64,000 nt of DNA from a virus. The stretch is taken from the IMG/VR virus record IMGVR_UViG_3300043410_001708, positions 42,270-106,269 of that record, one strand, 5' to 3'. Of this stretch, positions 4,192 through 22,709 are shown one piece after another. The translations under genes were made by a program, and so were the position numbers. The notes under the pieces are model-generated. The model had not been told where the DNA came from, did not search any database, and was given only the letters and a program-made list of their open reading frames with translations. Position 1 is the first letter of the stretch, and every line of letters starts with the position of its first letter.

Positions 4192-4264
4192 TGGTTGCGG
4201 GTCACGGAGTTGCACCGGAACTGAGGATTATGAGCCCACTGTGATACTATTTCACCAACCCGCT
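4192..4264 (-). tRNA. tRNA-Met(CAT), initiator-like
   Basis: Cloverleaf, loop CTCATAA, 1:72 mismatch, GGG in anticodon stem, encoded CCA; atypical T loop TGCAACT. Confidence 0.75.
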
Positions 4265-4453: not shown

Positions 4454-4699
4454 TTATTCTCCGTAGATATAAGCAATATCTTCAATCTTCACTACAAAAT
4501 AATCTTGCACTGTTACAGCTTTACCCCAATCTGGTTGCACCACATCACCAATCTGTAACTCAGTAACATCTGGTCCAACTGCAAGTACTTTTGCTCTATC
4601 AGGTTCTTCGGAGTGTCTTAGGATGATTCCTGAAGCGGTCTGTTTAACATTCTCAAGCCGTTCAATCAATACTTTATCGTGCAAGGGTTTAATATTCAT
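4454..4699 (-). CDS. groES: Co-chaperonin GroES/Cpn10
   Basis: MNIKPLHDKVLIE...TASGIIL...VLAVGP; start moved to ATG 4699 behind GAGGA. Confidence 0.9.
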   Translation of the reverse strand: MNIKPLHDKVLIERLENVKQTASGIILRHSEEPDRAKVLAVGPDVTELQIGDVVQPDWGKAVTVQDYFVVKIEDIAYIYGE

Positions 4700-4712
4700 A
4701 ATGTCCTCAAAA

Positions 4713-4779
4713 TGGAGCGGTCTTCTGCTTTGCTCAGATAACACAAGGGGGTGCCTTGTATCGTACTATTACAAACCGC
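4713..4779 (-). ncRNA. Degenerate tRNA-Gly-like RNA
   Basis: Acceptor GCGGTTT/AGACCGC-T-CCA intact; reduced D arm, non-canonical anticodon and T loops. Confidence 0.55.
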
Positions 4780-4935: not shown

Positions 4936-6363
4936 TCACAATACTTTGTAACGGTCATCCATGATGGTTTTAAGCATCACAGATTCTGGTGTAAAGGTTT
5001 CTAAGTCACCCGCCAACAGTGGTTTTACGACTGCTGGTGAGAAACCAGATACCAATGCAGTACCAGAAGTGTCGAACTTTACTGGAGCGTTGCCGTATGC
5101 GGCATTCAAGTTCCAGAATACAACCTTTGGCAAAGTGTATCCTGCTTCTTTGTACTTACGTGCAATCATCTGCATAGCAGAGTCATCATGTCTAACGCAA
5201 GCGTTAAATTGCATGTCTGACAGAATCAATACCATCGCTGGCATTTCTTCTTGTGGCACGCCACCTTTTACTGCTACATCAAGGATTTTTGCAAATGCCT
5301 TGTGTAGGTCGGTAGACATACCCCAATCAGATTTAACCATTTGGTCAATCTTTTGATTGATGTTACCTTTCAAGTGCAACAATTCTGGATTGGTAGAGAA
5401 AGTTAGGAAGGTGTCCTTGAACTTGCCTTCATTCTTATCTGCCAAGTATAGTCCCAAAGAGACTGCTACTTCCAAACAGGTTAGACCTGATTTGGAACCA
5501 TAACCACCTGCAGCGCAGGTCATTGAACCAGAAACATCCACCAAAGGTAGAATGTTTGCATCGCCAACAAAGTTAGGCAAAGCCTCCCATTGTTTTTGCA
5601 CCAAGTCCAATTCGGTCTTGTCGAATTTCATGTAACCACCGATACGGCCTTTCAGCACATCGTATGGGAACACAGCACCTGCATTAACCTTAACTTCTGG
5701 ATTATCACCCTTAACCAACGAAGCAACATATGCTGCATAAGTTGGAGTGTTACGGTTAAAAGCCTTCTTGTAACGGGATGCCGCTACGGAAGGTACGTGT
5801 GAGAAATTGATGGAATCCCAGTCTTTCGCACACATTTGAGTTTCAACCACTTTGGTCATTTCAACCAAAGACTTACGGTAAAACTTTGGGGACATACCAA
5901 AGAACTGACGGATTTCAGCCGCTAGTTTACCTTGGCGAGGAGTCCACTTTGCAGCCAATCCATTCTTCGCACGAAGCGCATCACCCAACATAGTGAATGC
6001 TGCTGACTTCATAACATCAGAATCGAATACAAAAATGTCGTCCCAACGGCCCAATTCAGGAACCTTTGTCAACAATGCTTTTGCGGCTTCTACGTCATTC
6101 TTTTCCAAATAACGCAAGATAGTACGGAACGATTCACGTTCACCGGCACCACCACGAGCATCACGTAACCAAGCAGCAACACGCAAAGCGAGTTCACGGT
6201 TTTCTGCCATTGCAGCTGCGAAAGCAGGCACAATGTTTTTGCCACGGGAAGCACCTGCATTGTAGAACAAATCTACAACTGCATTAGCAGTGGACTTACG
6301 AGCCTTCATACCGTTTGCGGTACGGGCATCTTGATTAACAACGGCATCTACAAAAGTTGACAT
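4936..6363 (-). CDS. Ro60/TROVE-like helical domain + vWA protein (DUF2828-type)
   Basis: N-terminal DLF, RDARGGAGER, GRWDD, AKWTPR motifs; C-terminal vWA MIDAS DVSGSM...STD...ILSDMQF...FWNL. Confidence 0.8.
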   Translation of the reverse strand: MSTFVDAVVNQDARTANGMKARKSTANAVVDLFYNAGASRGKNIVPAFAAAMAENRELALRVAAWLRDARGGAGERESFRTILRYLEKNDVEAAKALLTKVPELGRWDDIFVFDSDVMKSAAFTMLGDALRAKNGLAAKWTPRQGKLAAEIRQFFGMSPKFYRKSLVEMTKVVETQMCAKDWDSINFSHVPSVAASRYKKAFNRNTPTYAAYVASLVKGDNPEVKVNAGAVFPYDVLKGRIGGYMKFDKTELDLVQKQWEALPNFVGDANILPLVDVSGSMTCAAGGYGSKSGLTCLEVAVSLGLYLADKNEGKFKDTFLTFSTNPELLHLKGNINQKIDQMVKSDWGMSTDLHKAFAKILDVAVKGGVPQEEMPAMVLILSDMQFNACVRHDDSAMQMIARKYKEAGYTLPKVVFWNLNAAYGNAPVKFDTSGTALVSGFSPAVVKPLLAGDLETFTPESVMLKTIMDDRYKVL

Positions 6364-6384
6364 AACTTACTCCTCATAAAAAAA

Positions 6385-6504
6385 CAACAGAATACATTTT
6401 TTAGCGCACTACCAATTGTGCTATTCACGCCGAAGCGTAAAACAGGATTCGAACCTGTAACCTCTCCGTTATAAGCGGAAAAATTGTTTGCTGTGAGTAT
6501 TCTA
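6385..6504 (-). ncRNA. Y-RNA-like element E1 carrying a circularly permuted tRNA-Ile(UAU)
   Basis: Terminal stem AGAATAC/GTATTCT, ACAGCAA motif; inside, in order: anticodon arm, T arm, acceptor closed by UUCG, D arm. Confidence 0.8.
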
Positions 6505-6508
6505 AAAA

Positions 6509-6664
6509 CAACAGGTTAGCTTTCTACTTTTTGTTTACAGTGAGAAATCGAAACTCACCTTCGTTAGGACCATTTCAATAAACACCTTCAAAGGTCGAAA
6601 CCTCCAGTGTTTACCATAGTTACCTAACAGTTCAGTATTATTGAATAATGCTGTAACTAACCTA
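6509..6664 (-). ncRNA. Y-RNA-like element E2
   Basis: Terminal stem AGGTTAG/CTAACCT, ACAGCA motif, TGTTG tail; multi-hairpin interior with T-arm-like GTGAG-TTTCGATTT-CTCAC. Confidence 0.7.
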
Positions 6665-6692
6665 AAACCTTTTCAATCTTTCAATACTGTGT

Positions 6693-7050: not shown

Positions 7051-7635
7051 TCACATGGCAGGTCCGTTTCCATTACGGAAACCGACCTCACCACCTTCTT
7101 CTTTGATTCGTTTCATAACATCTTCAAAAAGAATAGGACGAAAATCTGTTTGTTCAACACAAACACAATGATAACGAACATCTGGTGTGTCCAGTTCTTG
7201 ACCTCCGTTCCATGTCATCATCACACGACCTGTATGAAGGTGACCGTGAATGTTTGTTCCGAAACGACCAAGACTGGCGGGATGAATTGGAATATGTGAA
7301 AGAATCATTCCGTTCATTACATGATACGCACGAAGTTCACGGAAGTGTATTCTATATTCATCATCACGGAAGATATCGTGGTTACCACGAATAAGAACTT
7401 TATCACCGTTAAGTCTATGCATAATGCTAAGTGCTTTACGATTGATTACAACATCACCAAGATGATATACTTTATCAGTTGGCTTTACTGTTTCGTTCCA
7501 ACGCTTAACCATTTCTTCATCCATTTCATTTGGATCGGTCCATGGTCTAATCTTTTCACCTGTTATGGAGTCGGTGAATCTACACACACCAGCGTGACCA
7601 AAGTGTGTGTCACTTACTAAAAATACTGATGGCAT
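7051..7635 (-). CDS. Calcineurin-like metallophosphoesterase
   Basis: SDTHFGH, HLGD, GNHD, HGHLH motifs; start moved to MPSVFLVSD behind AGGAG. Confidence 0.9.
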   Translation of the reverse strand: MPSVFLVSDTHFGHAGVCRFTDSITGEKIRPWTDPNEMDEEMVKRWNETVKPTDKVYHLGDVVINRKALSIMHRLNGDKVLIRGNHDIFRDDEYRIHFRELRAYHVMNGMILSHIPIHPASLGRFGTNIHGHLHTGRVMMTWNGGQELDTPDVRYHCVCVEQTDFRPILFEDVMKRIKEEGGEVGFRNGNGPAM

Positions 7636-7653
7636 AATAAACTCCTGAAAAAA

Positions 7654-7728
7654 TGGCCCGGCGTGAGGGAATCGAACCCCCATTCGCACTTTAGAAGAAT
7701 GCTGTCCTATCCATTGAACGAACGCCAG
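7654..7728 (-). tRNA. tRNA-Arg(TCT)
   Basis: Loop CTTCTAA, cloverleaf, CCA. Confidence 0.9.
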
Positions 7729-7733
7729 AAAAA

Positions 7734-8174
7734 TCATACTCGGATGTATTCGTAATTAACTGTTTCTTCATTTTCTCTAAAAACAATAGCGCCGTTCTTC
7801 AAGTGAAAACGCTTTGCCATTTCAGTTTTTGGAGATAATGTCACAAATCTTTTTATGTATGGCATATTATTTTCTATGTGTGATACTGCATCAAATATAA
7901 GTGTTCCACCAGCACCTGGTGCATAACTCCATATTGTATAAAATACCGCAATCTCTGGATCGTTTACCTTTTCAAACAATTCAGATTCTTTTGTCGGAAC
8001 ATTTGTCTGATAACTTACGCATGTGATTGCTAATACTTTACCATTTGTATCCCGAAGAACAAAAATATCTTTGTTATTACCTACTCTTTCCGTAGTTGGA
8101 ATGTTAGGCCTGACAGGATCTTCATCCAATAAATTAAAAAAACTATCTGTGATGGATTTTATAATATGTAACAT
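7734..8174 (-). CDS. Small GNAT-fold protein resembling the malonyl-CoA decarboxylase catalytic domain
   Basis: AVFYTIWS, FVTLSP and RFHLKNGA recall the MCD motifs AVFYSIS, FxTLSP and RFHLxNGA. Confidence 0.6.
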   Translation of the reverse strand: MLHIIKSITDSFFNLLDEDPVRPNIPTTERVGNNKDIFVLRDTNGKVLAITCVSYQTNVPTKESELFEKVNDPEIAVFYTIWSYAPGAGGTLIFDAVSHIENNMPYIKRFVTLSPKTEMAKRFHLKNGAIVFRENEETVNYEYIRV

Positions 8175-8556: not shown

Positions 8557-8631
8557 TGGTGGGTCGTCAGAGAATCAAACTCTGTTCTTCCGGTTAAGAG
8601 CCGGTTGCTTCATCACTTAAGCTTACAACCC
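8557..8631 (-). tRNA. tRNA-Lys(CTT)
   Basis: CCGG-CTCTTAA-CCGG, CCA. Confidence 0.88.
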
Positions 8632-8711: not shown

Positions 8712-8716
8712 ATATA

Positions 8717-8818
8717 CAACAGGATAGTTTTTTTACAGTGGGAATTGAACCCACAAGGTTTGCTTAGAAGGCAAATTGCGAACCATTCGCATGTGAATTT
8801 TTTGCTGAACCTATCCTA
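8717..8818 (-). ncRNA. Y-RNA-like element E3 carrying a tRNA-Arg(UCU) mimic
   Basis: Stem AGGATAG/CTATCCT, TCAGCAA; D-like arm, TTTGC-CTTCTAA-GCAAA, GTGGG-TTCAATT-CCCAC; no CCA. Confidence 0.8.
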
Positions 8819-8823
8819 AAACT

Positions 8824-8899
8824 TGGTGCTGCCTAGTAGAATCGAACTACTTTCCGAGGTTCTTCAGACCCCTGCTATGACCACATCAGCTAAAGCAGC
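8824..8899 (-). tRNA. tRNA-Phe(GAA)
   Basis: GGGGT-CTGAAGA-ACCTC, CCA. Confidence 0.92.
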
Positions 8900-8907
8900 A
8901 TATTGAA

Positions 8908-9074
8908 TTTGTAAGTATTGGGACCTCCCTCATTTCCCAACATTTTACCGGTATTTTCTGTGAAGCGGCCGACCGGTTAGAGGTACGTAGTAATAGTTGA
9001 TACTTGGCATCGGCAAAGCACTATCCTCATTCTTGTATGCCTACAAAAACTTTCTCAACATCTACACTTACAAA
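8908..9074 (-). ncRNA. Structured inter-tRNA RNA (unknown)
   Basis: 9-bp closing stem TTTGTAAGT/ACTTACAAA with internal stems GGCAT/ATGCC, ACCGGT/ACCGGT, TTGGGA/TCCCAA. Confidence 0.5.
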
Positions 9075-9077
9075 ACT

Positions 9078-9152
9078 TGGTACCTTGTGACGGGATCGAA
9101 CCGCCGACCTTCTCCTTGTAAGGGAGACACTCTACCGCTGAGTTAACAAGGC
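9078..9152 (-). tRNA. tRNA-Val(TAC)
   Basis: TCTCC-CTTACAA-GGAGA, CCA. Confidence 0.93.
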
Positions 9153-9165
9153 ATAAAATTTACTT

Positions 9166-9240
9166 TGGGGAGATATATGAGAATCGAACTCATGATAACG
9201 GAATCACAACCCGTGGTTTTGCCACTAAACTAATATCTCC
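9166..9240 (-). tRNA. tRNA-His(GTG)
   Basis: Loop TTGTGAT, G-1:C73, CCA. Confidence 0.92.
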
Positions 9241-9288
9241 CCAAAGTAAACTTTGGAATTTTTAACCGTGTTTATTCACGGGGGTCTG

Positions 9289-9777
9289 TTAGACCTGCAA
9301 AGCTTCTTGTTCTGCCAAGATTCTTTTCAATCTGTCAGCACAAAAACTTGCAGCTGGTGCGTCTGGTTTAACCATAGGTGTCATGTTACATGTACCCTTG
9401 ATATAACCAATCGCTTGTTGTACAACACATGAACTTCCGTACAAGTCATCTTTGTTTAAGTCCAAATGAACTTCAACATGGAAATCTTCTAATACATCAG
9501 CCAAGTCTTGGAACAATTCTGAAACCTTATACACTTCGGTCATTAACCGCATTGCAGGTTTACTTTTCTTATGGTCATAATCCAACTCACGTTGAACGAA
9601 ACCAAAAATCTTACAACCATGGCGGCCATCAATATGAACTACGACAGCCAAAGCATAGTCTGCATACCATACACCGTTTACACGGATACGTTCTGAGTCA
9701 GCACCCAAATATACTTTCGTATCTGGTCCTTGACTTGCAAGGAATTGCTTAACTTCTTGTATGTCGAACTTTTTCAT
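9289..9777 (-). CDS. RNase H-like YkuK-family protein
   Basis: VYLGADS, LMTEV, EVHLDLN, AASFCAD acidic motifs; start moved to MKKFDIQ. Confidence 0.75.
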   Translation of the reverse strand: MKKFDIQEVKQFLASQGPDTKVYLGADSERIRVNGVWYADYALAVVVHIDGRHGCKIFGFVQRELDYDHKKSKPAMRLMTEVYKVSELFQDLADVLEDFHVEVHLDLNKDDLYGSSCVVQQAIGYIKGTCNMTPMVKPDAPAASFCADRLKRILAEQEALQV

Positions 9778-9807
9778 ATCAATCACCTTTCTTTTTTTTA
9801 CTAACAC

Positions 9808-9881
9808 TGGCATCCCGACAGGGACTCGAACCCCGACCAACAGTTTTGGAGACTGGTATGCTGCCATTACACTATCGAGAT
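9808..9881 (-). tRNA. tRNA-Trp(CCA)
   Basis: CAGT-CTCCAAA-ACTG, G73, CCA. Confidence 0.92.
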
Positions 9882-9887
9882 ATAATA

Positions 9888-9951
9888 CAACAGGATAGAT
9901 TTTACTTTTCAAGTTACAAGTTTGAAGTATTTTATTGCTGTTACTATCCTA
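9888..9951 (-). ncRNA. Y-RNA-like element E4 (minimal)
   Basis: Stem AGGATAG/CTATCCT, ACAGCAA, single hairpin with anticodon-like loop CTTGTAA. Confidence 0.75.
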
Positions 9952-9955
9952 AAAA

Positions 9956-10029
9956 TGGTCCTCAGAACAAGAATCGAACTTGTGATGGCCGGTTATCAGC
10001 CGACTGTTATACCATTTAACTATCCGAGG
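9956..10029 (-). tRNA. tRNA-Ile(GAT)
   Basis: GTCGG-CTGATAA-CCGGC, CCA. Confidence 0.92.
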
Positions 10030-10033
10030 AATA

Positions 10034-10109
10034 TGGAGGGTCTTGAGGGATTCAAACCCCCGACCAATTGCTTCGTAGGCAACTACTCTGTTCACTGAGC
10101 TAAAGACCC
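10034..10109 (-). tRNA. tRNA-Arg(ACG)
   Basis: GTTGC-CTACGAA-GCAAT, CCA. Confidence 0.92.
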
Positions 10110-10115
10110 ATAATC

Positions 10116-10190
10116 TGGTGGTTCAGGTGAGAATCGAACTCACACAAGGCACCGTATGAAGATGCTGCACTGCCACTATGCTACTGAACC
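10116..10190 (-). tRNA. tRNA-Met(CAT), elongator-like
   Basis: GCATC-TTCATAC-GGTGC, fully paired acceptor, CCA. Confidence 0.85.
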
Positions 10191-10195
10191 AAATT

Positions 10196-10270
10196 TGGTG
10201 GACCGAGGGGGAATCGAACCCCCAACTGTGACTTGCAAGGCCACTGTGTTCCCAATTATACCATCAGCCC
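10196..10270 (-). tRNA. tRNA-Ala(TGC)
   Basis: GTGGC-CTTGCAA-GTCAC, G3:U70, CCA. Confidence 0.93.
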
Positions 10271-10326
10271 AAATTTGTTGTTGACAATTTATCTCATTAT
10301 ACGCCGTCAACAAAGGCGAGTATTAC

Positions 10327-10400
10327 TGGTCTCGGTGGCAAGAATCGAACTTGCGCCACATGCTCCCAAAGCACGGATGATACCATTTCACCACACCGAG
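10327..10400 (-). tRNA. tRNA-Pro(TGG)
   Basis: CGTGC-TTTGGGA-GCATG, CCA. Confidence 0.92.
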
Positions 10401-10406
10401 AAAATA

Positions 10407-10470
10407 CAACAGGATCGTTTTTGTCGCTAGACATCCAAAAGTTAGCTTGTTTATTGCTGAACCGATCCTA
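10407..10470 (-). ncRNA. Y-RNA-like element E5 (minimal)
   Basis: Stem AGGATCG/CGATCCT, TCAGCAA, TGTTG tail, small internal hairpin GCTA...TAGC. Confidence 0.75.
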
Positions 10471-10474
10471 AAAC

Positions 10475-10635: not shown

Positions 10636-10827
10636 ATTAGTACAAGCTACTGATTTTCCACGTCAGCCCTTGATTGAGCGGTTTCTCTGTCCATCCCTTT
10701 TATCTGGTACCTGTGTGCAGAGGGATACTGCCTATCAGAGCCTGAGTATTTCTCTCGCTAACGGTTTTCTGCCACCGGATCTCTATCGTTAATCAAACGC
10801 TACTTTAACGAAAAGTAGTAACGAGAT
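10636..10827 (-). ncRNA. Structured inter-tRNA RNA (~190 nt, unknown)
   Basis: GC-richer spacer with nested stems CTACTTT/AAAGTAG, TTGATT/AATCAA, CTCTG/CAGAG, TATCCCT/AGGGATG, GCTGA/TCAGT. Confidence 0.55.
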
Positions 10828-10828
10828 T

Positions 10829-10915
10829 TGGTGGAGACGGTGTGAGTCGAACACACAATGCCCTGAGGGCGGCGGATTTACAGTCCACTGGGGTTACCAA
10901 TTTTCCTACATCTCC
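10829..10915 (-). tRNA. tRNA-Tyr(GTA)
   Basis: GTGGA-CTGTAAA-TCCGC, long variable arm, CCA. Confidence 0.93.
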
Positions 10916-10923
10916 AAATTTTT

Positions 10924-10998
10924 TGGTAGGGGCACAGAGAATCGAACTCTGATTATCTGGTTAAAAGCCAGGTACTTTCGCCGTTAAGTTATACCCCC
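10924..10998 (-). tRNA. tRNA-Lys(TTT)
   Basis: CTGG-CTTTTAA-CCAG, CCA. Confidence 0.92.
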
Positions 10999-11316: not shown

Positions 11317-11392
11317 TGGAGTAGGTGACAGGAATCGAACCTGCATACAAGTGGTTTGCAATCACTTCCCTAGCCTTTCGGGTCACACCTAC
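11317..11392 (-). tRNA. tRNA-Cys(GCA)
   Basis: Loop TTGCAAA, U73, CCA. Confidence 0.9.
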
Positions 11393-11628
11393 ACTAATTT
11401 TTTCCTTGAACTACGGTGTGTTTCATCACGCCGCATAGTCCAATCGTAAGAGTTACCATCTGGTAACTTCTTATCTTTAACTTCATCATATCCAAACTTA
11501 CCAACGAATTCCATTTCACCATTAGTGATTGTTACGAATTCGTTAACAGTCTTGGCAAAGAACATTGCACCTGACAATGTTTCATGTTTCCATTCTTTCA
11601 ATTTTGTTTTTACTATCCACATACTCAT
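11389..11628 (-). CDS. Hypothetical protein
   Basis: 79 aa ORF filling the gap between two tRNAs. Confidence 0.6.
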   Translation of the reverse strand: MSMWIVKTKLKEWKHETLSGAMFFAKTVNEFVTITNGEMEFVGKFGYDEVKDKKLPDGNSYDWTMRRDETHRSSRKKLV

Positions 11629-11636
11629 CTTTCATT

Positions 11637-11728
11637 TGGTACCAGCGGTGAGAATCGAACTCACTCAAGAACGCTAATCTGGCGCTAAAAGGTGTATAAG
11701 ACCTCTCTGACTACCAAGTCTCGCTGGC
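11637..11728 (-). tRNA. Non-canonical tRNA with TAT anticodon (Ile/AUA) and long variable arm
   Basis: Acceptor GCCAGCG/CGCTGGT-A-CCA, mini D arm GACT-TGGT-AGTC, loop CTTATAC, variable stem, normal T arm. Confidence 0.75.
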
Positions 11729-13953: not shown

Positions 13954-14084
13954 AGGACCTCGTAATCTTCTTTACCGCAGCCACATTCAGGACAAGTAAA
14001 GTCATCAGGTAATGTATTCCATGCACCCTCTGTTGCTTCATCATGTTCATGTCCACAAACTACACATACGTGTACTTCACTCAT
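13950..14084 (-). CDS. Rubredoxin (44 aa), not in ORF track
   Basis: MSEVHVCVVCGHEHDEATEGAWNTLPDDFTCPECGCGKEDYEVL with two CxxCG motifs. Confidence 0.92.
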   Translation of the reverse strand: MSEVHVCVVCGHEHDEATEGAWNTLPDDFTCPECGCGKEDYEVL

Positions 14085-14533
14085 TATAGTTCTCCTAATT
14101 TTTGTTGATATGCAGCTGCATGACGTTTTTCAATTTTGGATAATGCAGCAAAACGTTTTTCTGCCTTACGTAGGATATCAGAAAATTGTTCTGCGTGTAT
14201 TTTTGATTCTTCAATTTGATGGCGAGCTTCCAATGAGGCAGATAAATTGCCTTCTGTTTTTGCATCAATTTCAAATTGTGGATACATTGTAGTGAATTCG
14301 TATGTCTCACCTTCAATGGCTTTCTCCAAACATTCTTTAGTTGATGGTTTACCAATTAACAATTCCAAATGACCCCATGCATGAAGTAACTCTTGGTCTG
14401 CTGTATGTTCAAAGTGTTTTGCAACATCTTCAAAACCTTCTTCTCGAGCAATCTTCGCAAAGTAACGATATTTGATATGTGCTTGACTTTCTCCAGCCAA
14501 GGCACTCTCAAGGTTTTTAATTGTAATTGACAT
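14084..14533 (-). CDS. rbr: Rubrerythrin (short-chain, ferritin-like)
   Basis: NLESALAGES, QELLHA, GETYE, EESKIHA di-iron motifs; start moved to MSITIKN. Confidence 0.9.
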   Translation of the reverse strand: MSITIKNLESALAGESQAHIKYRYFAKIAREEGFEDVAKHFEHTADQELLHAWGHLELLIGKPSTKECLEKAIEGETYEFTTMYPQFEIDAKTEGNLSASLEARHQIEESKIHAEQFSDILRKAEKRFAALSKIEKRHAAAYQQKLGEL

Positions 14534-14551
14534 AATACTCCTTAATAAAAA

Positions 14552-14626
14552 TGGTGGGCCCACTAGGAATTGAACCTAGACTCAATGAATTATGAGTTCA
14601 CTGCTTTACCATTAAGCTATAGGCCC
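14552..14626 (-). tRNA. tRNA-Ile2(CAT), lysidine type
   Basis: GGGCCTA acceptor, GTGAA-CTCATAA-TTCAT, CCA. Confidence 0.8.
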
Positions 14627-14808
14627 TATTTGATATATTCTAACGAATCTTTTCTCATTAATTTAGGTGTTTCCCTAATACCAATGTTTTTAATTACGTA
14701 AACGAAAGTAACACCATCAATTTCTTTAGTCTCTGGTGAACAGACGTAGTAATTCTCCATCGTGGTTTTTACACGAACTTTTTTGATGTATTGTTTTTCA
14801 GTTTTCAT
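14626..14808 (-). CDS. Hypothetical protein
   Basis: Basic 60 aa ORF directly behind the TTGACA-17-TATAAT promoter at 14815-14843. Confidence 0.55.
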   Translation of the reverse strand: MKTEKQYIKKVRVKTTMENYYVCSPETKEIDGVTFVYVIKNIGIRETPKLMRKDSLEYIK

Positions 14809-14825
14809 AATACTATTATAAAGGT

Positions 14826-14853
14826 AAAAAAAGAGGTTGTCAAGCAACCTCTT
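14826..14853 (-). terminator. Intrinsic terminator after the hsp20 unit
   Basis: AAGAGGTTG/CAACCTCTT stem plus T run; overlaps the next promoter's -35. Confidence 0.75.
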
Positions 14854-14858
14854 TACTA

Positions 14859-14924
14859 TTACCGGAACTTTTCAGGATAATTTAGTCGTTCCCACTCCTC
14901 ATCGGAGACAGGCCACCAATTCAT
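14859..14924 (-). CDS. 21-aa peptide coupled to hsp20
   Basis: ATGA overlap with the hsp20 stop; MNWWPVSDEEWERLNYPEKFR. Confidence 0.45.
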   Translation of the reverse strand: MNWWPVSDEEWERLNYPEKFR

Positions 14925-15367
14925 TCTTTTTCCTTAATAGCAATTTTCTTAATGGCGTCTTGTGTTTTGACCATATTTTCTAGCCAAATTTTAAGCATAC
15001 CATTCATTAGTTCCGCATCTTTGATTTCTACTTTATCTGCGAGAGTAAAGGTACGTTCAAATGCACGGTTGGCAATGCCTTTGTACAGATAATCTTCAGA
15101 TTCATCATCTTTAGATGCAGCTTTAATTACAAGTTTGTTTCCTTCCAAAGTCATTTCAATATCAGACTTAGCAAAACCAGCAACAGCCATTTCAATGACG
15201 TACTTGTTTTCTTTTACCTGTTTGATGTTGTATGGAGGATAAGATACGGCTTTAGTTGCAGCCGTTGCAGCTTCACGCATAAGTTCCAATGTATCATTGA
15301 ATCCTACTGTGAATGGTTGAATTTTACCAAAATCAGAACCGAAAAAATCTTTCATAAGATTTGTCAT
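14921..15367 (-). CDS. hsp20: Small heat-shock protein Hsp20 (IbpA-like)
   Basis: YPPYNI, IEMAVAGF, YKGIANRAFERTF, NGML motifs. Confidence 0.95.
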   Translation of the reverse strand: MTNLMKDFFGSDFGKIQPFTVGFNDTLELMREAATAATKAVSYPPYNIKQVKENKYVIEMAVAGFAKSDIEMTLEGNKLVIKAASKDDESEDYLYKGIANRAFERTFTLADKVEIKDAELMNGMLKIWLENMVKTQDAIKKIAIKEKE

Positions 15368-20838: not shown

Positions 20839-22104
20839 TTATCTGCCAACTTGCGGCAAATACTTAGCCTTGGTTTCTTCCCAAGACAGGTATATCAAGT
20901 CATCATAAAACAATGATTCATAAGATACATTATTCTTTTTCTTCAACATTGATATACGACCCTTGGCATATTTGGTTTTCCAAATTTGCGTCAAGGTTTC
21001 TTCACTGGTATCAAATGATTTGACCAGTTGTTCATCACCAATTTCTTTCCTAAGATACTCATTGGTGTTGTTATAGAGAGGTGAGAAATAGATGCCTCTC
21101 TGATGTTCGGTACGGATAAGTTCTTTTGGAATACCTAACTTACCATACGCAAAATTTAATGTACGATTTTTGTGGTCACGTTTAAGTGGAAGTCCTTTTT
21201 GATTCTTGGCTTCCCACCACTCAAAATATTTACGTGTATGATTCTCTTTTACCCAATCATAAATCATTGTTCTGGTTTTTCTGGACGGTTCAAAAGCAAC
21301 AGAACCACTAGAGAAACCCATTTTGTTCCAATGTTCAAGACCATCATACTGAGATAGACCATTGGACTTAGTATTACCATAAAGAGAAGTAGTTGTAACT
21401 CCAACAAGAACATCACCATATTGTTTTTTCCAATCATTCTGTACAGTATCGGCAAGACACAATAGTGCCAACAATTTTCCACCCATGTAATTGAAACCAA
21501 GTGGTTGTAATGGAACAATTGTGGAACCGATTGCAGTATGATTAATCATACCTTGTTGTGTCTTAACATCTCTAGGCCAACCGATGGCCGTGTCTCTTGG
21601 AGTCAAGTCCAAGAAGTCGGATGATATACAGATAACACCAAGATATTTGTCTGTAACTTCATCAACCACAGTGTAATAAAGATTGCGGCCAATGTTTGAA
21701 TTGTTTTTCATTGTGGAAGAAAATGTACGTACAGTATTCCACGTTTCTGCCAAAGGTCCGTTAGATAAAACCAACTTTGGTTTTAGTTTTTCATAATCAT
21801 CTGGACCTTCTGGCATCCAAAAATTCTTCTTTACTTTTTCAACCAGTTTCTTTTGTGTAACATCTACCAATTGTACTTCTTCTTCAAAAAGTGTACTGAT
21901 GGTTCTGGTTGGATATTTCTCATGGACCTCTAACCACTTTTGATATAAGGTATACTCACGCACATCCATTTGTGATGCATACGTGAGGTCCTTAATCAAT
22001 ATCTCTTTCAATTGCTCGGTATCAATATGTTCAAAACGTTCAGGATCATTTAGTACCTGCCATTTCTCCCACTGAGCATCAACATAATCTATAGGTGTGG
22101 CCAT
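20839..22104 (-). CDS. DUF4338/DruA-like protein
   Basis: GRNL, LGVICISSD...RD..IGW, GGKLLALL, TTTSLYG..SQY motifs. Confidence 0.65.
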   Translation of the reverse strand: MATPIDYVDAQWEKWQVLNDPERFEHIDTEQLKEILIKDLTYASQMDVREYTLYQKWLEVHEKYPTRTISTLFEEEVQLVDVTQKKLVEKVKKNFWMPEGPDDYEKLKPKLVLSNGPLAETWNTVRTFSSTMKNNSNIGRNLYYTVVDEVTDKYLGVICISSDFLDLTPRDTAIGWPRDVKTQQGMINHTAIGSTIVPLQPLGFNYMGGKLLALLCLADTVQNDWKKQYGDVLVGVTTTSLYGNTKSNGLSQYDGLEHWNKMGFSSGSVAFEPSRKTRTMIYDWVKENHTRKYFEWWEAKNQKGLPLKRDHKNRTLNFAYGKLGIPKELIRTEHQRGIYFSPLYNNTNEYLRKEIGDEQLVKSFDTSEETLTQIWKTKYAKGRISMLKKKNNVSYESLFYDDLIYLSWEETKAKYLPQVGR

Positions 22105-22709
22105 TATTTTTTATTCAAAAGTTTATTCATCTTTTTAGGATTGAAATATTTGCGTCTAATTTTATCCAATCTCTTTAAACCAAATTGTAACGCAAGCGGT
22201 TTTACACGACTAGTATACACTATCCCGTTCATATGGTCAAGCTCATGAAGAAAACATCTTGCAGATATGCCACTAAAAGTTTTGGTACGTTTCTCACCTG
22301 TGAAATCCTGATACTCAACTTCCACATGTTCTGGTCTGGTGATACGAAGATTTAGGAAAGGGAATGAAAGGCATCCTTCTTCCATGTGTTTCTCACCACT
22401 TGATGAAATGATTTTCGGATTAAAGTATGCCACATATTCTTCACCGGCACCCATAACAAAAACACGGTACTCAAAACCACATTGATTAGCAGATAGTCCA
22501 ATACCGTTATGTTTTCTGCAAGTTTCTACCAATGTTGATGCGAAACTATTTGGATTGATTGGTGCATTTTCAAAATCAAACTCCGGTAGGACTTTGTAAA
22601 GTGCTGGATGGTCTGGCGGTACCAAGTCAAACGTTTCAACCTTTTCGGCTGTCGGTGCAACCTTAATGGTTTCTTCTGTGTTATATAAGACAATATCTTC
22701 TGTATTCAT
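22104..22709 (-). CDS. def: Peptide deformylase
   Basis: GIGLSANQ, EGCLS, HELDH. Confidence 0.95.
   Translation of the reverse strand: MNTEDIVLYNTEETIKVAPTAEKVETFDLVPPDHPALYKVLPEFDFENAPINPNSFASTLVETCRKHNGIGLSANQCGFEYRVFVMGAGEEYVAYFNPKIISSSGEKHMEEGCLSFPFLNLRITRPEHVEVEYQDFTGEKRTKTFSGISARCFLHELDHMNGIVYTSRVKPLALQFGLKRLDKIRRKYFNPKKMNKLLNKK

What the first reader, a model, noticed from the sequence alone, without database searches (positions are those of the whole stretch)
8717..10470. Anticodon-loop cargo in E3-E5: possible decoy panel
Seen: E3 holds an unpermuted cloverleaf (GCGAA-TGG-TTCGC, TTTGC-CTTCTAA-GCAAA = Arg UCU, GTGGG-TTCAATT-CCCAC) with only a vestigial acceptor and no CCA. E4 is reduced to one hairpin TTCAA-A-CTTGTAA-C-TTGAA (Thr UGU-like loop). 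E5 has a weaker hairpin with loop TTTTGGA (UUG or UGG, ambiguous). With E1 (UAU), all displayed triplets begin with U34, and each has a true tRNA counterpart in the array. Inference: the scaffold presents anticodon loops as sacrificial substrates or inhibitors for host tRNases. E5 is the weakest case.
Basis: partly seen in the sequence, partly recalled or inferred. Interest (0 to 1): 0.72.

Follow-up and report, generated by a model that had tools for sequence, protein, structure and literature searches.

The report
Phage Y-like RNAs displaying anticodon arms
Three small RNAs wedged between the tRNA genes of a freshwater T4-like phage share a conserved "handle" that travels with a Ro60-shaped protein, and two of them, like dozens of relatives, hold up a faithful copy of a tRNA anticodon arm that may serve as bait in the phage-bacterium contest over tRNAs.

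Summary
E3, E4 and E5 are real. They are three of five "handle" RNAs on the tRNA strand: a covarying 7-bp closing stem, CAGCAA after its 5' strand and GU after its 3' strand. They lie upstream of a DUF2828/DUF7788 protein whose model folds like Ro60. A handle-only scan of 81 related sequences finds 257 elements on the sense strand and none on the antisense strand.

E3 is an unpermuted tRNA-like body with an Arg-UCU loop. It scores above the Rfam tRNA cut-off but has no CCA. E4 is a bare Thr-UGU-like anticodon arm with an A.C closing mismatch.

In relatives, about half of the short cargos are perfect 5-bp/7-nt hairpins with CU-NNN-AA loops (27 of 57, against 0.06 in shuffles). The stems covary. 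At fixed slots in the conserved tRNA order the triplet switches between close relatives (UCU, UUU, UAU; UGU, GUA, UUU).

E5 belongs to a separate conserved class. Its loop is 7-9 nt long and consensus folding gives no anticodon arm.

So the display of anticodon arms is well supported, but the decoy function is untested. A Felix O1-type homologue is reported to counter the Ppl defence, which is not known to cut tRNA. This scan has already met the handle/Ro-like system on many other genomes. The anticodon-arm census and the slot turnover are what this report adds.

The parts
8712..8821 (-). E3, a handle RNA with an unpermuted tRNA-like cargo. UUUU 8818-8821; 5' stem strand 8811-8817; GUU-CAGCAA 8802-8810; cargo 8728-8801; 3' stem strand 8721-8727; GU-led tail 8712-8720 that runs up to tRNA-Leu(CAA).
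   Evidence: for sequence and fold. for Rfam tRNA, 35.8 bits at 8730-8798. for the syntenic slot between tRNA-Phe and tRNA-Leu(CAA).
8759..8775 (-). E3 anticodon arm: a 5-bp stem and the 7-nt loop CUUCUAA, with UCU at 8766-8768. The loop is identical to that of the true tRNA-Arg(UCU) at 7654-7728, but the stems differ.
   Evidence: The closest relative, L001, has CUUUUAA here.
9882..9954 (-). E4, a handle RNA with an anticodon arm as its only cargo. 5' stem strand 9944-9950; UAA-CAGCAA 9935-9943; cargo 9899-9934; 3' stem strand 9892-9898; tail 9882-9891 that runs up to tRNA-Trp.
   Evidence: aligns end to end with Rfam RF01414, but at only 13.7 bits.
9908..9926 (-). E4 hairpin: loop CUUGUAA (UGU at 9916-9918), closed by an A.C mismatch, on a stem of 4-5 AU-rich pairs with a 3-bp outer helix.
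   Evidence: Relatives in the same slot have a perfect 5-bp/7-nt version. Covariation is shown.
10401..10473 (-). E5, a handle RNA of a separate conserved cargo class. 5' stem strand 10463-10469; GUU-CAGCAA 10454-10462; cargo 10418-10453; 3' stem strand 10411-10417; tail 10401-10410 that runs up to tRNA-Pro.
10422..10446 (-). E5 cargo core. GCUAAC 10441-10446; U-rich GG stretch 10433-10440; invariant GUCUAGCGAC region with a predicted 4-bp hairpin capped by UAGC (10422-10433). The fold is unresolved, and an anticodon-arm reading is not supported.
   Evidence: the RNAalifold consensus has no anticodon-like hairpin and all cargo pairs are invariant; loop length 7-9 nt.
6378..6507 (-). E1, a family member outside the finding. 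Handle plus a circularly permuted tRNA-like cargo (anticodon arm with loop CUUAUAA, T arm, closed acceptor, D arm), immediately upstream of the protein gene.
   Evidence: Rfam YrlA 36.5 bits, gathering score 69.
6508..6667 (-). E2, a family member outside the finding. Handle with a 129-nt cargo of another conserved class.
4936..6363 (-). Ro60-fold protein of 475 aa (Pfam DUF2828 plus DUF7788). It has a vWA domain with an invariant MIDAS motif (D276, S278, S280). It is the presumed partner of the handle.
   Evidence: Pfam; PHROG 850, 'RNA-binding protein'; invariant residues; model, pLDDT 93; Foldseek top hits are Ro60 2i91/1yvr/1yvp, Rsr 2nvo and phage phiLo Ro60 9l5y.

Best explanation
E3, E4 and E5 are three of five small 'handle' RNAs of a T4-like freshwater phage.

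Shown or strongly supported (about 0.85):
- Each RNA is closed by a covarying 7-bp stem, with CAGCAA after the 5' strand and GU after the 3' strand.
- Each lies between tRNA genes on the tRNA strand, so RNase P at the next tRNA and 3' processing of the previous tRNA should release an RNA of 70-110 nt. This step is inferred.
- The handle travels with a Ro60-fold DUF2828 protein across very different phages, so it is most likely that protein's binding site, as the conserved stem of Y RNAs is for Ro60.
- The variable interior is a displayed module. E3 shows a whole tRNA-Arg(UCU)-like body with its ends tied into the handle. E4 shows only a Thr(UGU)-like anticodon arm. E5 shows a different conserved hairpin module.

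Inferred mechanism (about 0.35):
- The particle offers anticodon arms that cannot be charged to proteins that read tRNA anticodon arms.
- These are most plausibly host anticodon nucleases of defence systems.
- The arms act as tight-binding bait or competitive inhibitors rather than as consumable substrates.
- The phage's own full tRNA set replaces any tRNAs that are cut.
- Single-base switches at position 35 retarget a slot from one tRNA to another.
For: Handle and strand
- 257 elements on the sense strand and 0 on the antisense strand in 81 sequences.
- The closing stem is 100% paired, and 5 of 7 pairs show changes on both sides.
- An RNA-side scan of IMG/VR found 279 more elements. All 146 that share a locus with the protein are on its strand.
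- The only complete genome checked among loci without the protein in the fetched piece does encode it elsewhere.
- The same handle lies near the protein in Felix O1, Vibrio phage nt-1, a cyanophage and Cronobacter phage S13.

Protein
- The model has pLDDT 93 and its best PDB matches are Ro60 (E 2.5e-8, TM 0.65).

Anticodon-arm mimicry
- E3 scores above the Rfam tRNA gathering score.
- 27 of 57 short cargos carry perfect CU-NNN-AA hairpins, against 0.06 in shuffles. With the wider scan it is 46 of 89.
- Among 30 distinct 7-nt-loop hairpins found with no constraint on the loop: U33 in 26, A37 in 23, A38 in 26.
- 4 of 5 pairs of the arm's stem show compensatory changes.
- Synteny: fixed slots keep an arm while the triplet changes.

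Link to defence
- The commonest triplets are UUU 29, UCU 25 and UGU 23 of 134.
- PARIS AriB cuts Lys-UUU, Thr-UGU and Asn-GUU and needs U36-A-A-U39 (PMC12409363). Most arm-only cargos have U36-A-A-U39.
- P2 OLD prefers Thr-UGU (PMC12445682).
- Bas63 gp130 is Ro60-like and lies upstream of that phage's tRNA stretch. It is reported to counter the Ppl defence (PMC11482910).
Against: - No binding, cleavage or expression data exist for this phage. Contigs from four RNA libraries cover the region but cannot prove transcription.
- The host is unknown, because the record is a virus contig only. The arms therefore cannot be compared with host tRNAs or host defences.
- The one experimental counter-defence link is to Ppl, which is described as sensing DNA 3'-OH overhangs, not as a tRNase.
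- Cargos in Felix O1-type phages are not canonical anticodon arms. In phage S13 the handle replaces the anticodon loop of two tRNA bodies, so the anticodon is precisely what is missing there.
- AriB also needs D-loop contacts, so a bare arm may bind it poorly.
- The AU-rich 5-bp arms are marginally stable on their own. E4 has z = -0.6, and RNAalifold on the mixed alignment predicts only the handle.
- The match between displayed triplets and nuclease targets was noticed after the fact.
- The loop frame C32...U36-A37-A38 is, from my own knowledge, also the determinant set for t6A37 formation. The bias could therefore reflect recognition by a modification enzyme.
- E5 does not fit the anticodon reading.
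Confidence: 0.38

Rival explanations
1. Tether for tRNA enzymes, not a decoy. As proposed for bacterial YrlA, the tRNA-like and anticodon-arm modules recruit host or phage tRNA-handling proteins to the Ro-like ring. Candidates are anticodon-loop modification enzymes such as the t6A37 machinery, aminoacyl-tRNA synthetases with anticodon-binding domains, processing or repair enzymes, or PNPase. The ring would then do quality control, repair or turnover of the phage's roughly 30 tRNAs, or of damaged host tRNAs.
For: [quoted passage not shown]
- Phage phiLo Ro60 with its Y-like RNAs binds host PNPase (PMC12135203).
- Ro with a tRNA-like partner has been proposed as an RNA-repair platform in jumbo phages (PMC7824862).
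- The elements sit inside the tRNA array next to a calcineurin-like phosphoesterase and an RNase H-like protein.
- The conserved loop frame CU-NNN-AA with mostly U36 equals, from my own knowledge, the t6A37 determinant set.
- Variation is concentrated at position 35. This fits an enzyme that reads the frame and not the triplet.
Against: - No RNA ligase, kinase-phosphatase or RtcB was found in the parts of the window searched.
- The rapid switching and the presence or absence of cargo at syntenic slots among close relatives looks more like conflict-driven turnover than a housekeeping role.
- A homologue behaves as a counter-defence gene.
Confidence: 0.27
2. The handle plus the protein is the working unit, and the cargo is largely filler inherited from tRNA genes. 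The particle acts through the Ro-like ring and its vWA/MIDAS domain, for example against a DNA-end-sensing defence such as Ppl or by capturing an exonuclease. On this view the anticodon-arm look reflects tRNA ancestry and a need for any compact hairpin.
For: - Cargos are extremely diverse, from 25 to about 280 nt. Classes such as E2 and E5 have no tRNA likeness.
- Felix O1-type elements carry non-canonical hairpins, yet the Bas63 homologue has a phenotype.
- Slots can be empty in close relatives.
- The triplet is not conserved within a slot.
Against: - Decay of a tRNA remnant would erase the arm.
- Instead, the 5-bp/7-nt geometry, U33 and A37-A38 are kept across loci whose proteins are only 68-99% identical. 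Compensatory stem changes occur, and the excess over shuffles is about 400-fold.
- Arm-only cargos arose repeatedly, with many different stems.
Confidence: 0.2
3. These are not RNAs with a function of their own. They would be DNA-level repeats (miniature inverted-repeat elements, recombination or homing sites) or plain transcription and processing signals scattered through the tRNA array.
For: - The elements have terminal inverted repeats.
- They are dispersed in several copies.
- They vary in presence between relatives.
- HNH homing endonucleases sit in some related arrays, for example in Felix O1.
Against: - The strand bias is absolute, 257 to 0, and always matches the tRNAs and the protein.
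- Both arms of the stem change together.
- G.U pairs occur on the sense strand only: the invariant U.G at the base of the handle and several arm stems.
- The interior holds tRNA-type structure that is read correctly only on the sense strand: 0 of 57 strict hits on the reverse complement.
- The elements occupy fixed slots, not random sites.
Confidence: 0.03

Closest known systems
Bacterial and phage YrlA-type Y RNAs with Ro60/Rsr (Chen et al. 2014, PMC4201824; Rfam RF02553)
   Same: - A small RNA closed by a terminal stem that goes with a ring-shaped Ro-type protein encoded next to it.
- The interior mimics tRNA.
- E1 of this window has the YrlA order of T arm, closed acceptor and D arm, and gives a sub-threshold YrlA match.
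   Different: - The protein is Pfam DUF2828/DUF7788, not TROVE.
- The handle motif is different.
- There are five or more copies, dispersed inside a tRNA array.
- E3 is unpermuted, and E4 carries only an anticodon arm, the very part that YrlA lacks.
- E3-E5 give no YrlA match.
Thermus phage phiLo Ro60 with Yrl1/Yrl2 (PMC12135203; PDB 9KOP, 9L5Y)
   Same: - A phage-encoded Ro60-fold protein with Y-like RNAs encoded just upstream.
- The structure is among the top fold matches of the window's protein.
   Different: - The phiLo RNAs are described with a bulged stem and a CGAA motif, and they bind host PNPase.
- No tRNA or anticodon-arm cargo and no tRNA array are reported for them.
Bas63 gp130, a Ro60-like counter-defence protein of a Felix O1-type phage (PhageMaP preprint, PMC11482910)
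   Same: - Ro60-like fold, directly upstream of the phage's tRNA stretch.
- The Felix O1 homologue is 39% identical to the window's protein and has four handle elements in its tRNA array.
- The authors guessed that some annotated 'tRNAs' are Y RNAs.
   Different: - The RNAs were not identified there.
- The phenotype is against Ppl, a system said to sense DNA ends.
- Felix O1-type cargos are not canonical anticodon arms.
- Orthology of gp130 with the Felix O1 gene is inferred from position and was not checked by sequence.
Phage tRNAs that replace or evade cleaved host tRNAs (T5 tRNA-Lys/Thr/Asn against PARIS, PMC12409363; phage tRNA-Thr against P2 OLD, PMC12445682)
   Same: - The same battlefield and the same tRNA species (UUU, UGU, GUU).
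- The window also carries a full tRNA set whose Lys and Arg tRNAs lack U39.
   Different: - Those are working, chargeable tRNAs that restore decoding.
- E3-E5 have no free acceptor end or CCA and cannot decode.
- They could act only as mimics.
Class I RNAs of dictyostelid amoebae (PMC7919456; Rfam RF01414)
   Same: - About 60 nt, with a short covarying stem that joins the 5' and 3' ends.
- A conserved motif follows the 5' strand of the stem, the interior is variable, and the sequence CUG(U) follows the 3' strand.
- E4 aligns to the model from end to end, and the ACAGCAAU stretch is identical.
   Different: - The score is far below the family threshold (13.7 against 41.5 bits, E = 2.4).
- They are eukaryotic, of unknown function and with an RRM-protein partner.
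- No link to DUF2828 has been shown.
- This is a lead, not a membership.
Anticodon-arm mimicry in the E. coli thrS operator (own knowledge, not checked here)
   Same: An RNA hairpin that copies a tRNA anticodon arm in order to capture a protein that reads anticodons.
   Different: - That one is a cis-acting mRNA element for autoregulation of a synthetase.
- It has no protein-bound handle.
- It does not come as a panel.

Membership tests
YrlA (Rfam RF02553) | Covariance-model score at or above the gathering score (69 bits) | tested here: not met
   E1 gives 36.5 bits. E3, E4 and E5 give no match even at E up to 10.
YrlA (Rfam RF02553) | Permuted tRNA-like module (T arm, closed acceptor, D arm) with no anticodon loop | tested here: not met
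   E3 is in the normal tRNA order and has an anticodon arm. E4 and E5 have no T or D arm. E1 alone has the permuted order, plus an anticodon arm.
Ro60/Y RNA particle | The RNA is encoded beside a Ro60-type protein (HEAT-repeat ring plus vWA domain) | tested here: met
   Model pLDDT 93. The Foldseek top 12 PDB matches are all Ro60/Rsr/TROVE, E 2.5e-8 to 4e-6, TM up to 0.65. MIDAS residues are invariant. The elements lie 15 nt to 4.1 kb upstream on the same strand.
Ro60/TROVE protein family by sequence | Match to the Pfam TROVE domain | tested here: not met
   Pfam reports only DUF2828 and DUF7788. phmmer against PDB sequences finds nothing.
Ro60/Y RNA particle | Physical binding of the RNA's conserved stem by the protein | not testable with these tools
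   Only co-occurrence and shared strand are shown.
tRNA (Rfam RF00005) | Cloverleaf score at or above the gathering score (29 bits) | tested here: met
   E3 gives 35.8 bits at 8730-8798. E4 and E5 give no match.
tRNA (functional) | A free 7-bp acceptor stem with discriminator and a 3' CCA (encoded by every true tRNA of this phage) | tested here: not met
   In E3, 5 of 7 acceptor positions pair, there is no CCA, and both ends run into the handle. ARAGORN does not call it.
Anticodon stem-loop architecture | A 5-bp stem and a 7-nt loop with Y32, U33 and R37 | tested here: met
   E3 meets it fully. E4 has the canonical loop with 4 bp plus A31.C39, and relatives in the same slot meet it fully. Family-wide enrichment and covariation are shown.
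Anticodon stem-loop architecture (E5) | A 5-bp stem and a 7-nt loop with Y32, U33 and R37 | tested here: not met
   In the window the candidate loop is 8 nt on a stem with a bulge. Relatives have 7-9 nt. The consensus fold has no such hairpin and there is no covariation.
Dictyostelid Class I RNA (Rfam RF01414) | Covariance-model score at or above the gathering score (41.5 bits) | tested here: not met
   E4 gives 13.7 bits (E = 2.4), E1 gives 15.3 bits and E5 gives none.
Decoy or inhibitor of anticodon nucleases | Binding to, cleavage by or inhibition of a tRNA-targeting nuclease, and protection of the phage | not testable with these tools
   There is only a correspondence between the displayed triplets and published targets.

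The most novel reading that the evidence does not exclude
The Ro-like ring with its handle RNAs is a programmable bait rack. Each slot in the tRNA array holds an anticodon arm, or a whole tRNA body, that captures and neutralises one kind of tRNA-targeting defence nuclease (PARIS/OLD-type Toprim enzymes, PrrC/RloC, colicin-like toxins). Single-base switches at position 35 retarget a slot as hosts change their weapons. This would be a new class of RNA-based anti-defence. It would also give a purpose to tRNA mimicry by Y-like RNAs in general.
Probability: 0.25. Interest if true: 0.88.

Novelty: new variant of a known kind. Interest (0 to 1): 0.7.

Why it matters
Why bacterial Y RNAs imitate tRNA has been an open question since 2014. 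In this phage lineage the imitation is pared down to the anticodon arm alone. That arm is multiplied into a panel and changes its triplet between close relatives. This points to the anticodon arm as the part that is read and gives a concrete, testable idea of who reads it.

If the arms bind or block anticodon nucleases, this would be a counter-defence made of RNA mimics. It would complement the known tactic of carrying replacement tRNAs.

The handle with its DUF2828 partner occurs in at least 701 deposited phage genomes, including Felix O1-type coliphages. I found no description of the RNAs in the literature searched. Experiments in standard laboratory strains are therefore possible. Many 'gaps' and odd 'tRNAs' in phage tRNA arrays could also be re-annotated.

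Tried and rejected
- **Single-sequence AlphaFold model of the protein:** pLDDT 38, unusable. It was replaced by a model built on a 109-sequence alignment.
- **phmmer of the protein against PDB sequences:** nothing.
- **Megablast of the region against deposited phages:** only one tRNA-sized hit.
- **RNAalifold on the mixed short-cargo alignment:** predicted only the handle. My first hand-made structure string was out of register and was redone.
- **Pseudoknot idea:** I considered pairing CAGC of the handle with the GUUG tail. I dropped it because both segments are invariant, so there is no covariation, and no linker would be left to span the 7-bp stem.
- **Handle-to-cargo pairing in E5:** I considered GUUCAGC pairing with the E5 cargo GCUAAC, which both the minimum-energy fold and RNAalifold use. 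It does not hold in relatives with other trinucleotides and there is no covariation, so it remains open.
- **E5 as a D-arm mimic:** rejected, because the loop would be too long.
- **E3 as a recent copy of the phage's tRNA-Arg(UCU):** rejected, with only 43 of 69 positions identical, about the median for any tRNA.
- **Host identification through the window's assembly:** failed, because it is a 106-kb virus record only.
- **Expression:** contigs of four metatranscriptome libraries from four studies cover the region, including E1-E4 and the edge of E5. Contigs cannot show transcription, ends or strand, and DNA may be present in such libraries.
- **Rfam:** no family reaches threshold on E4 or E5.
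- **Literature searches:** searches for DUF2828, phage Y RNAs with anticodon arms, and decoys of anticodon nucleases found no prior description of these RNAs.


Full report
**Setting.** The window is part of a 106-kb IMG/VR virus record. It belongs to a T4-like myovirus: gp23 capsid, gp20 portal, gp18 sheath, large terminase, clamp and clamp loader. Runs that hold it come from freshwater and estuary metagenomes. Positions 4.2-14.6 kb hold 28 ARAGORN tRNAs. Rfam adds two further plausible tRNAs at 8560-8631 and 4195-4264, plus the E3 body at 8730-8798. All are on the minus strand, and every ARAGORN-called tRNA encodes CCA.

**The repeat family.**
- Five elements on the same strand share a scaffold. 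It consists of a U run, a 7-bp stem that starts with AG, three variable bases, CAGCAA, a variable interior that ends A-rich, the complementary stem strand ending in CU, and then GU.
- The elements are E1 6378-6507, E2 6508-6667, E3 8712-8821, E4 9882-9954 and E5 10401-10473.
- E3, E4 and E5 each start 0-2 nt after the CCA of the preceding tRNA and end at the first base of the next tRNA. Ordinary tRNA processing should therefore cut them out. This is an inference.

**The partner protein.**
- E1 abuts a 475-aa gene (4936-6363, minus strand). Pfam calls it DUF2828 plus DUF7788, and PHROGs calls it an RNA-binding protein.
- A model built on 109 homologues has pLDDT 93.
- Its 12 best PDB matches are all Ro60, Rsr or TROVE structures, including the Ro60 of Thermus phage phiLo (E 2.5e-8 to 4e-6, TM up to 0.65). 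Behind them come vWA/MIDAS domains.
- The MIDAS residues are invariant.
- 'Ro-like' is therefore justified by fold, though not by the Pfam TROVE model.

**Is the family real?**
- A search with the protein brought in 80 IMG/VR loci with 68-99% identity.
- A scan that uses only the handle finds 257 elements on the protein's strand and none on the other. 75 of 81 sequences have at least one. A stricter first version gave 146 against 9.
- In an alignment chosen by cargo length alone, the closing stem is paired in every sequence and 5 of its 7 pairs change on both sides. None of 500 shuffles reaches the observed scores.
- A second sample was drawn from the RNA side, with a 15-base pattern of the 5' half. 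It gave 279 elements in 96 of 118 loci. All 146 that share a locus with the protein are on its strand.
- I then checked five records whose fetched piece lacked the protein. The only complete genome among them has it elsewhere, and so does one fragment.
- The same handle, with other stem sequences, lies near the homologous gene in four distant phages:
  - Felix O1 has four elements in gaps of its tRNA array.
  - Vibrio phage nt-1 has three.
  - A Synechococcus phage has at least four.
  - Cronobacter phage S13 has one classical element.
- In S13, two annotated 'tRNAs' are also tRNA bodies with CCA whose anticodon loop is replaced by a handle-like hairpin. That is the inverse topology.

**E3.**
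- Rfam's tRNA model scores 35.8 bits on 8730-8798 (gathering score 29). It finds a D arm, the arm with loop CUUCUAA and a T arm. The acceptor pairs at 5 of 7 positions and there is no CCA.
- The minimum-energy fold shows the three hairpins inside the handle.
- Homologues have canonical D arms with GG and short covarying acceptor-like helices of 3-6 bp. ARAGORN even calls some of them tRNAs.
- E3 is no closer to the phage's true tRNA-Arg(UCU) than to an average tRNA. The two share only the loop.

**E4.**
- Read as an anticodon arm, it has four pairs plus A31.C39 and the loop CUUGUAA, on a 3-bp outer helix.
- Alone it is not more stable than shuffles. Relatives in the same slot have the perfect 5-bp/7-nt form.

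**The census.**
- Among unique cargos of 45 nt or less, 27 of 57 carry a perfect 5-bp stem with a CU-NNN-AA loop. Shuffles give a mean of 0.06 (maximum 2) and the reverse complement gives none.
- With the wider scan the figure is 46 of 89. In the second sample it is 38 of 110 new cargos.
- With no constraint on the loop, 30 distinct 7-nt-loop hairpins show U33 in 26, A37 in 23, A38 in 26 and C32 in 16. The cargos are 27% U and 13% C.
- Four of the five stem pairs show compensatory changes, and a 2-bp outer helix covaries between A-U and G-C.
- Over 435 unique cargos there are 134 such loops with 23 different triplets: UUU 29, UCU 25, UGU 23, GUA 9, GGA 8, UAU 6, UGA 6, GCA 5 and others.
- U34 is thus common, at about 70%, but is not a rule. 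The strongest pattern is U34-N35-U36 (62%).

**Slots and turnover.** The order of the tRNA genes is conserved among relatives, and the elements sit in fixed slots.
- Between tRNA-Phe and tRNA-Leu(CAA), the E3 slot:
  - the window has a tRNA-like UCU;
  - L001, whose protein is 99% identical, has the same body with UUU;
  - L005 has an arm-only UUU;
  - L038 has UAU;
  - three relatives have nothing detectable.
- Between tRNA-Ile(GAU) and tRNA-Trp, the E4 slot holds UGU, GUA or UUU.
- Upstream of the protein, the E1 slot holds UAU, UUG or GAA.
- Identical stems occur with different middle bases.
- The arm is kept while the triplet moves, mostly at position 35.

**E5.**
- Thirteen unique cargos form a class with an invariant GUCUAGCGAC region and a GCUA(A)AC segment. 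The U-rich GG stretch between them makes a loop of 7 to 9 nt.
- RNAalifold predicts the handle, three pairs between the handle's AGC and the cargo's GCU, and a small hairpin capped by UAGC. None of these cargo pairs varies.
- In five of the thirteen, the alternative hairpin has a 7-nt loop of the Pro-UGG type.
- Relatives fill the same slot with small hairpins that carry related UGGA-containing loops. A displayed loop therefore remains possible.
- The anticodon reading is nevertheless not supported for the window's copy.

**What is known.**
- Ro60 orthologues with tRNA-like Y RNAs (YrlA) occur in bacteria and phages (PMC4201824).
- Phage phiLo Ro60 binds two upstream Y-like RNAs and host PNPase (PMC12135203).
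- Jumbo-phage Ro/TROVE proteins were proposed as RNA-repair platforms (PMC7824862).
- The PhageMaP preprint reports that Bas63 gp130, which is Ro60-like and directly upstream of the tRNA stretch, counters the Ppl defence. It guesses that some of the 'tRNAs' are Y RNAs (PMC11482910).
- Ppl is described as sensing DNA 3'-OH overhangs.
- I found no description of the handle RNAs or of arm-only cargos.
- The handle resembles dictyostelid Class I RNAs in architecture. Rfam aligns E4 to that model end to end, but at only 13.7 bits.
- Earlier notes of this scan report the same handle/Ro-like pairing on many other genomes. This report adds the anticodon-arm statistics, the slot turnover and the separate status of E5.

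**Mechanism.**
- The structural reading is well supported: a Y-like particle whose RNA displays tRNA parts.
- For function I commit to bait or inhibition of anticodon-reading defence nucleases, at roughly one chance in three. The reasons are these:
  - The dominant triplets UUU and UGU coincide with published targets of PARIS AriB (Lys-UUU, Thr-UGU, Asn-GUU, with a U36-A-A-U39 requirement) and of P2 OLD (Thr-UGU).
  - Most arm-only cargos carry U36-A-A-U39, while the phage's own tRNA-Lys and tRNA-Arg do not.
  - Turnover at the slots looks like a product of conflict.
  - A homologue is a counter-defence gene.
- Against this reading:
  - The Ppl link is to DNA ends.
  - AriB needs D-loop contacts.
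  - Felix O1-type cargos are not anticodon-like.
  - S13 hides the anticodon.
  - The loop frame also fits the determinants of t6A37 formation (my own knowledge), which favours the rival reading of enzyme recruitment.
- Nothing here tests binding.

Noticed in passing
window 11637-11728 (-): The 'tRNA-Ile(UAU)' is 92 nt long and has a long variable arm. It sits directly next to two tRNA-Ser genes and is conserved in relatives. A class II, Ser-like body with a UAU anticodon might be charged by SerRS, which would raise the question of how AUA is decoded.
   Followed up: partly
window 8560-8631 (-) and 4195-4264 (-): Two tRNAs found by Rfam (49.7 and 33.4 bits) but not by ARAGORN. The first has the loop CUCUUAA (Lys-CUU) and ends in CCA. 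The second has the loop CUCAUAA, making it a third CAU tRNA.
   Followed up: partly
window 6508-6667 (-), and L064:7770, L024:4712, L022:9794 and others: The E2 cargo class has a conserved hairpin with a T-loop-like UUUCGAU loop, followed by a conserved A-rich segment. It occurs with cargos of 70-74, 95-96 and 125-130 nt. Its nature is unknown.
   Followed up: no
L082 (Cronobacter phage S13) 7895-8137 and 8154-8288: Two features annotated as tRNA-Ser and tRNA-OTHER are tRNA bodies with CCA. Their anticodon loop is replaced by a hairpin followed by UAUUCAGCA, which is the handle in inverse topology. A classical handle element with permuted tRNA cargo follows them.
   Followed up: partly
L083 (Salmonella phage Felix O1) 10717-10781, 10884-10939, 11338-11403, 11425-11547: Four unannotated handle elements (stem GACCNN, CAGCAA, 3' UGG) lie in gaps of the tRNA array downstream of the 'RNA-binding protein' ORF42.
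   Followed up: partly
window 20839-22104 (-): A 421-aa phage protein matches the Druantia DruA domain (PF14236, E = 2.6e-20), a component of a bacterial defence system.
   Followed up: no
L005, between tRNA-Val and tRNA-Phe: ARAGORN calls a CUA-anticodon (amber suppressor-type, 'Pyl') tRNA in a relative's array. It is absent from the window.
   Followed up: no
window 7051-7737 (-), 9289-9780 (-), 4454-4744 (-), 14084-15367 (-), 22104-22709 (-): Several protein genes lie in or near the tRNA array: a calcineurin-like phosphoesterase, an RNase H-like (PF04308) protein, Cpn10, rubrerythrin, Hsp20 and peptide deformylase.
   Followed up: no
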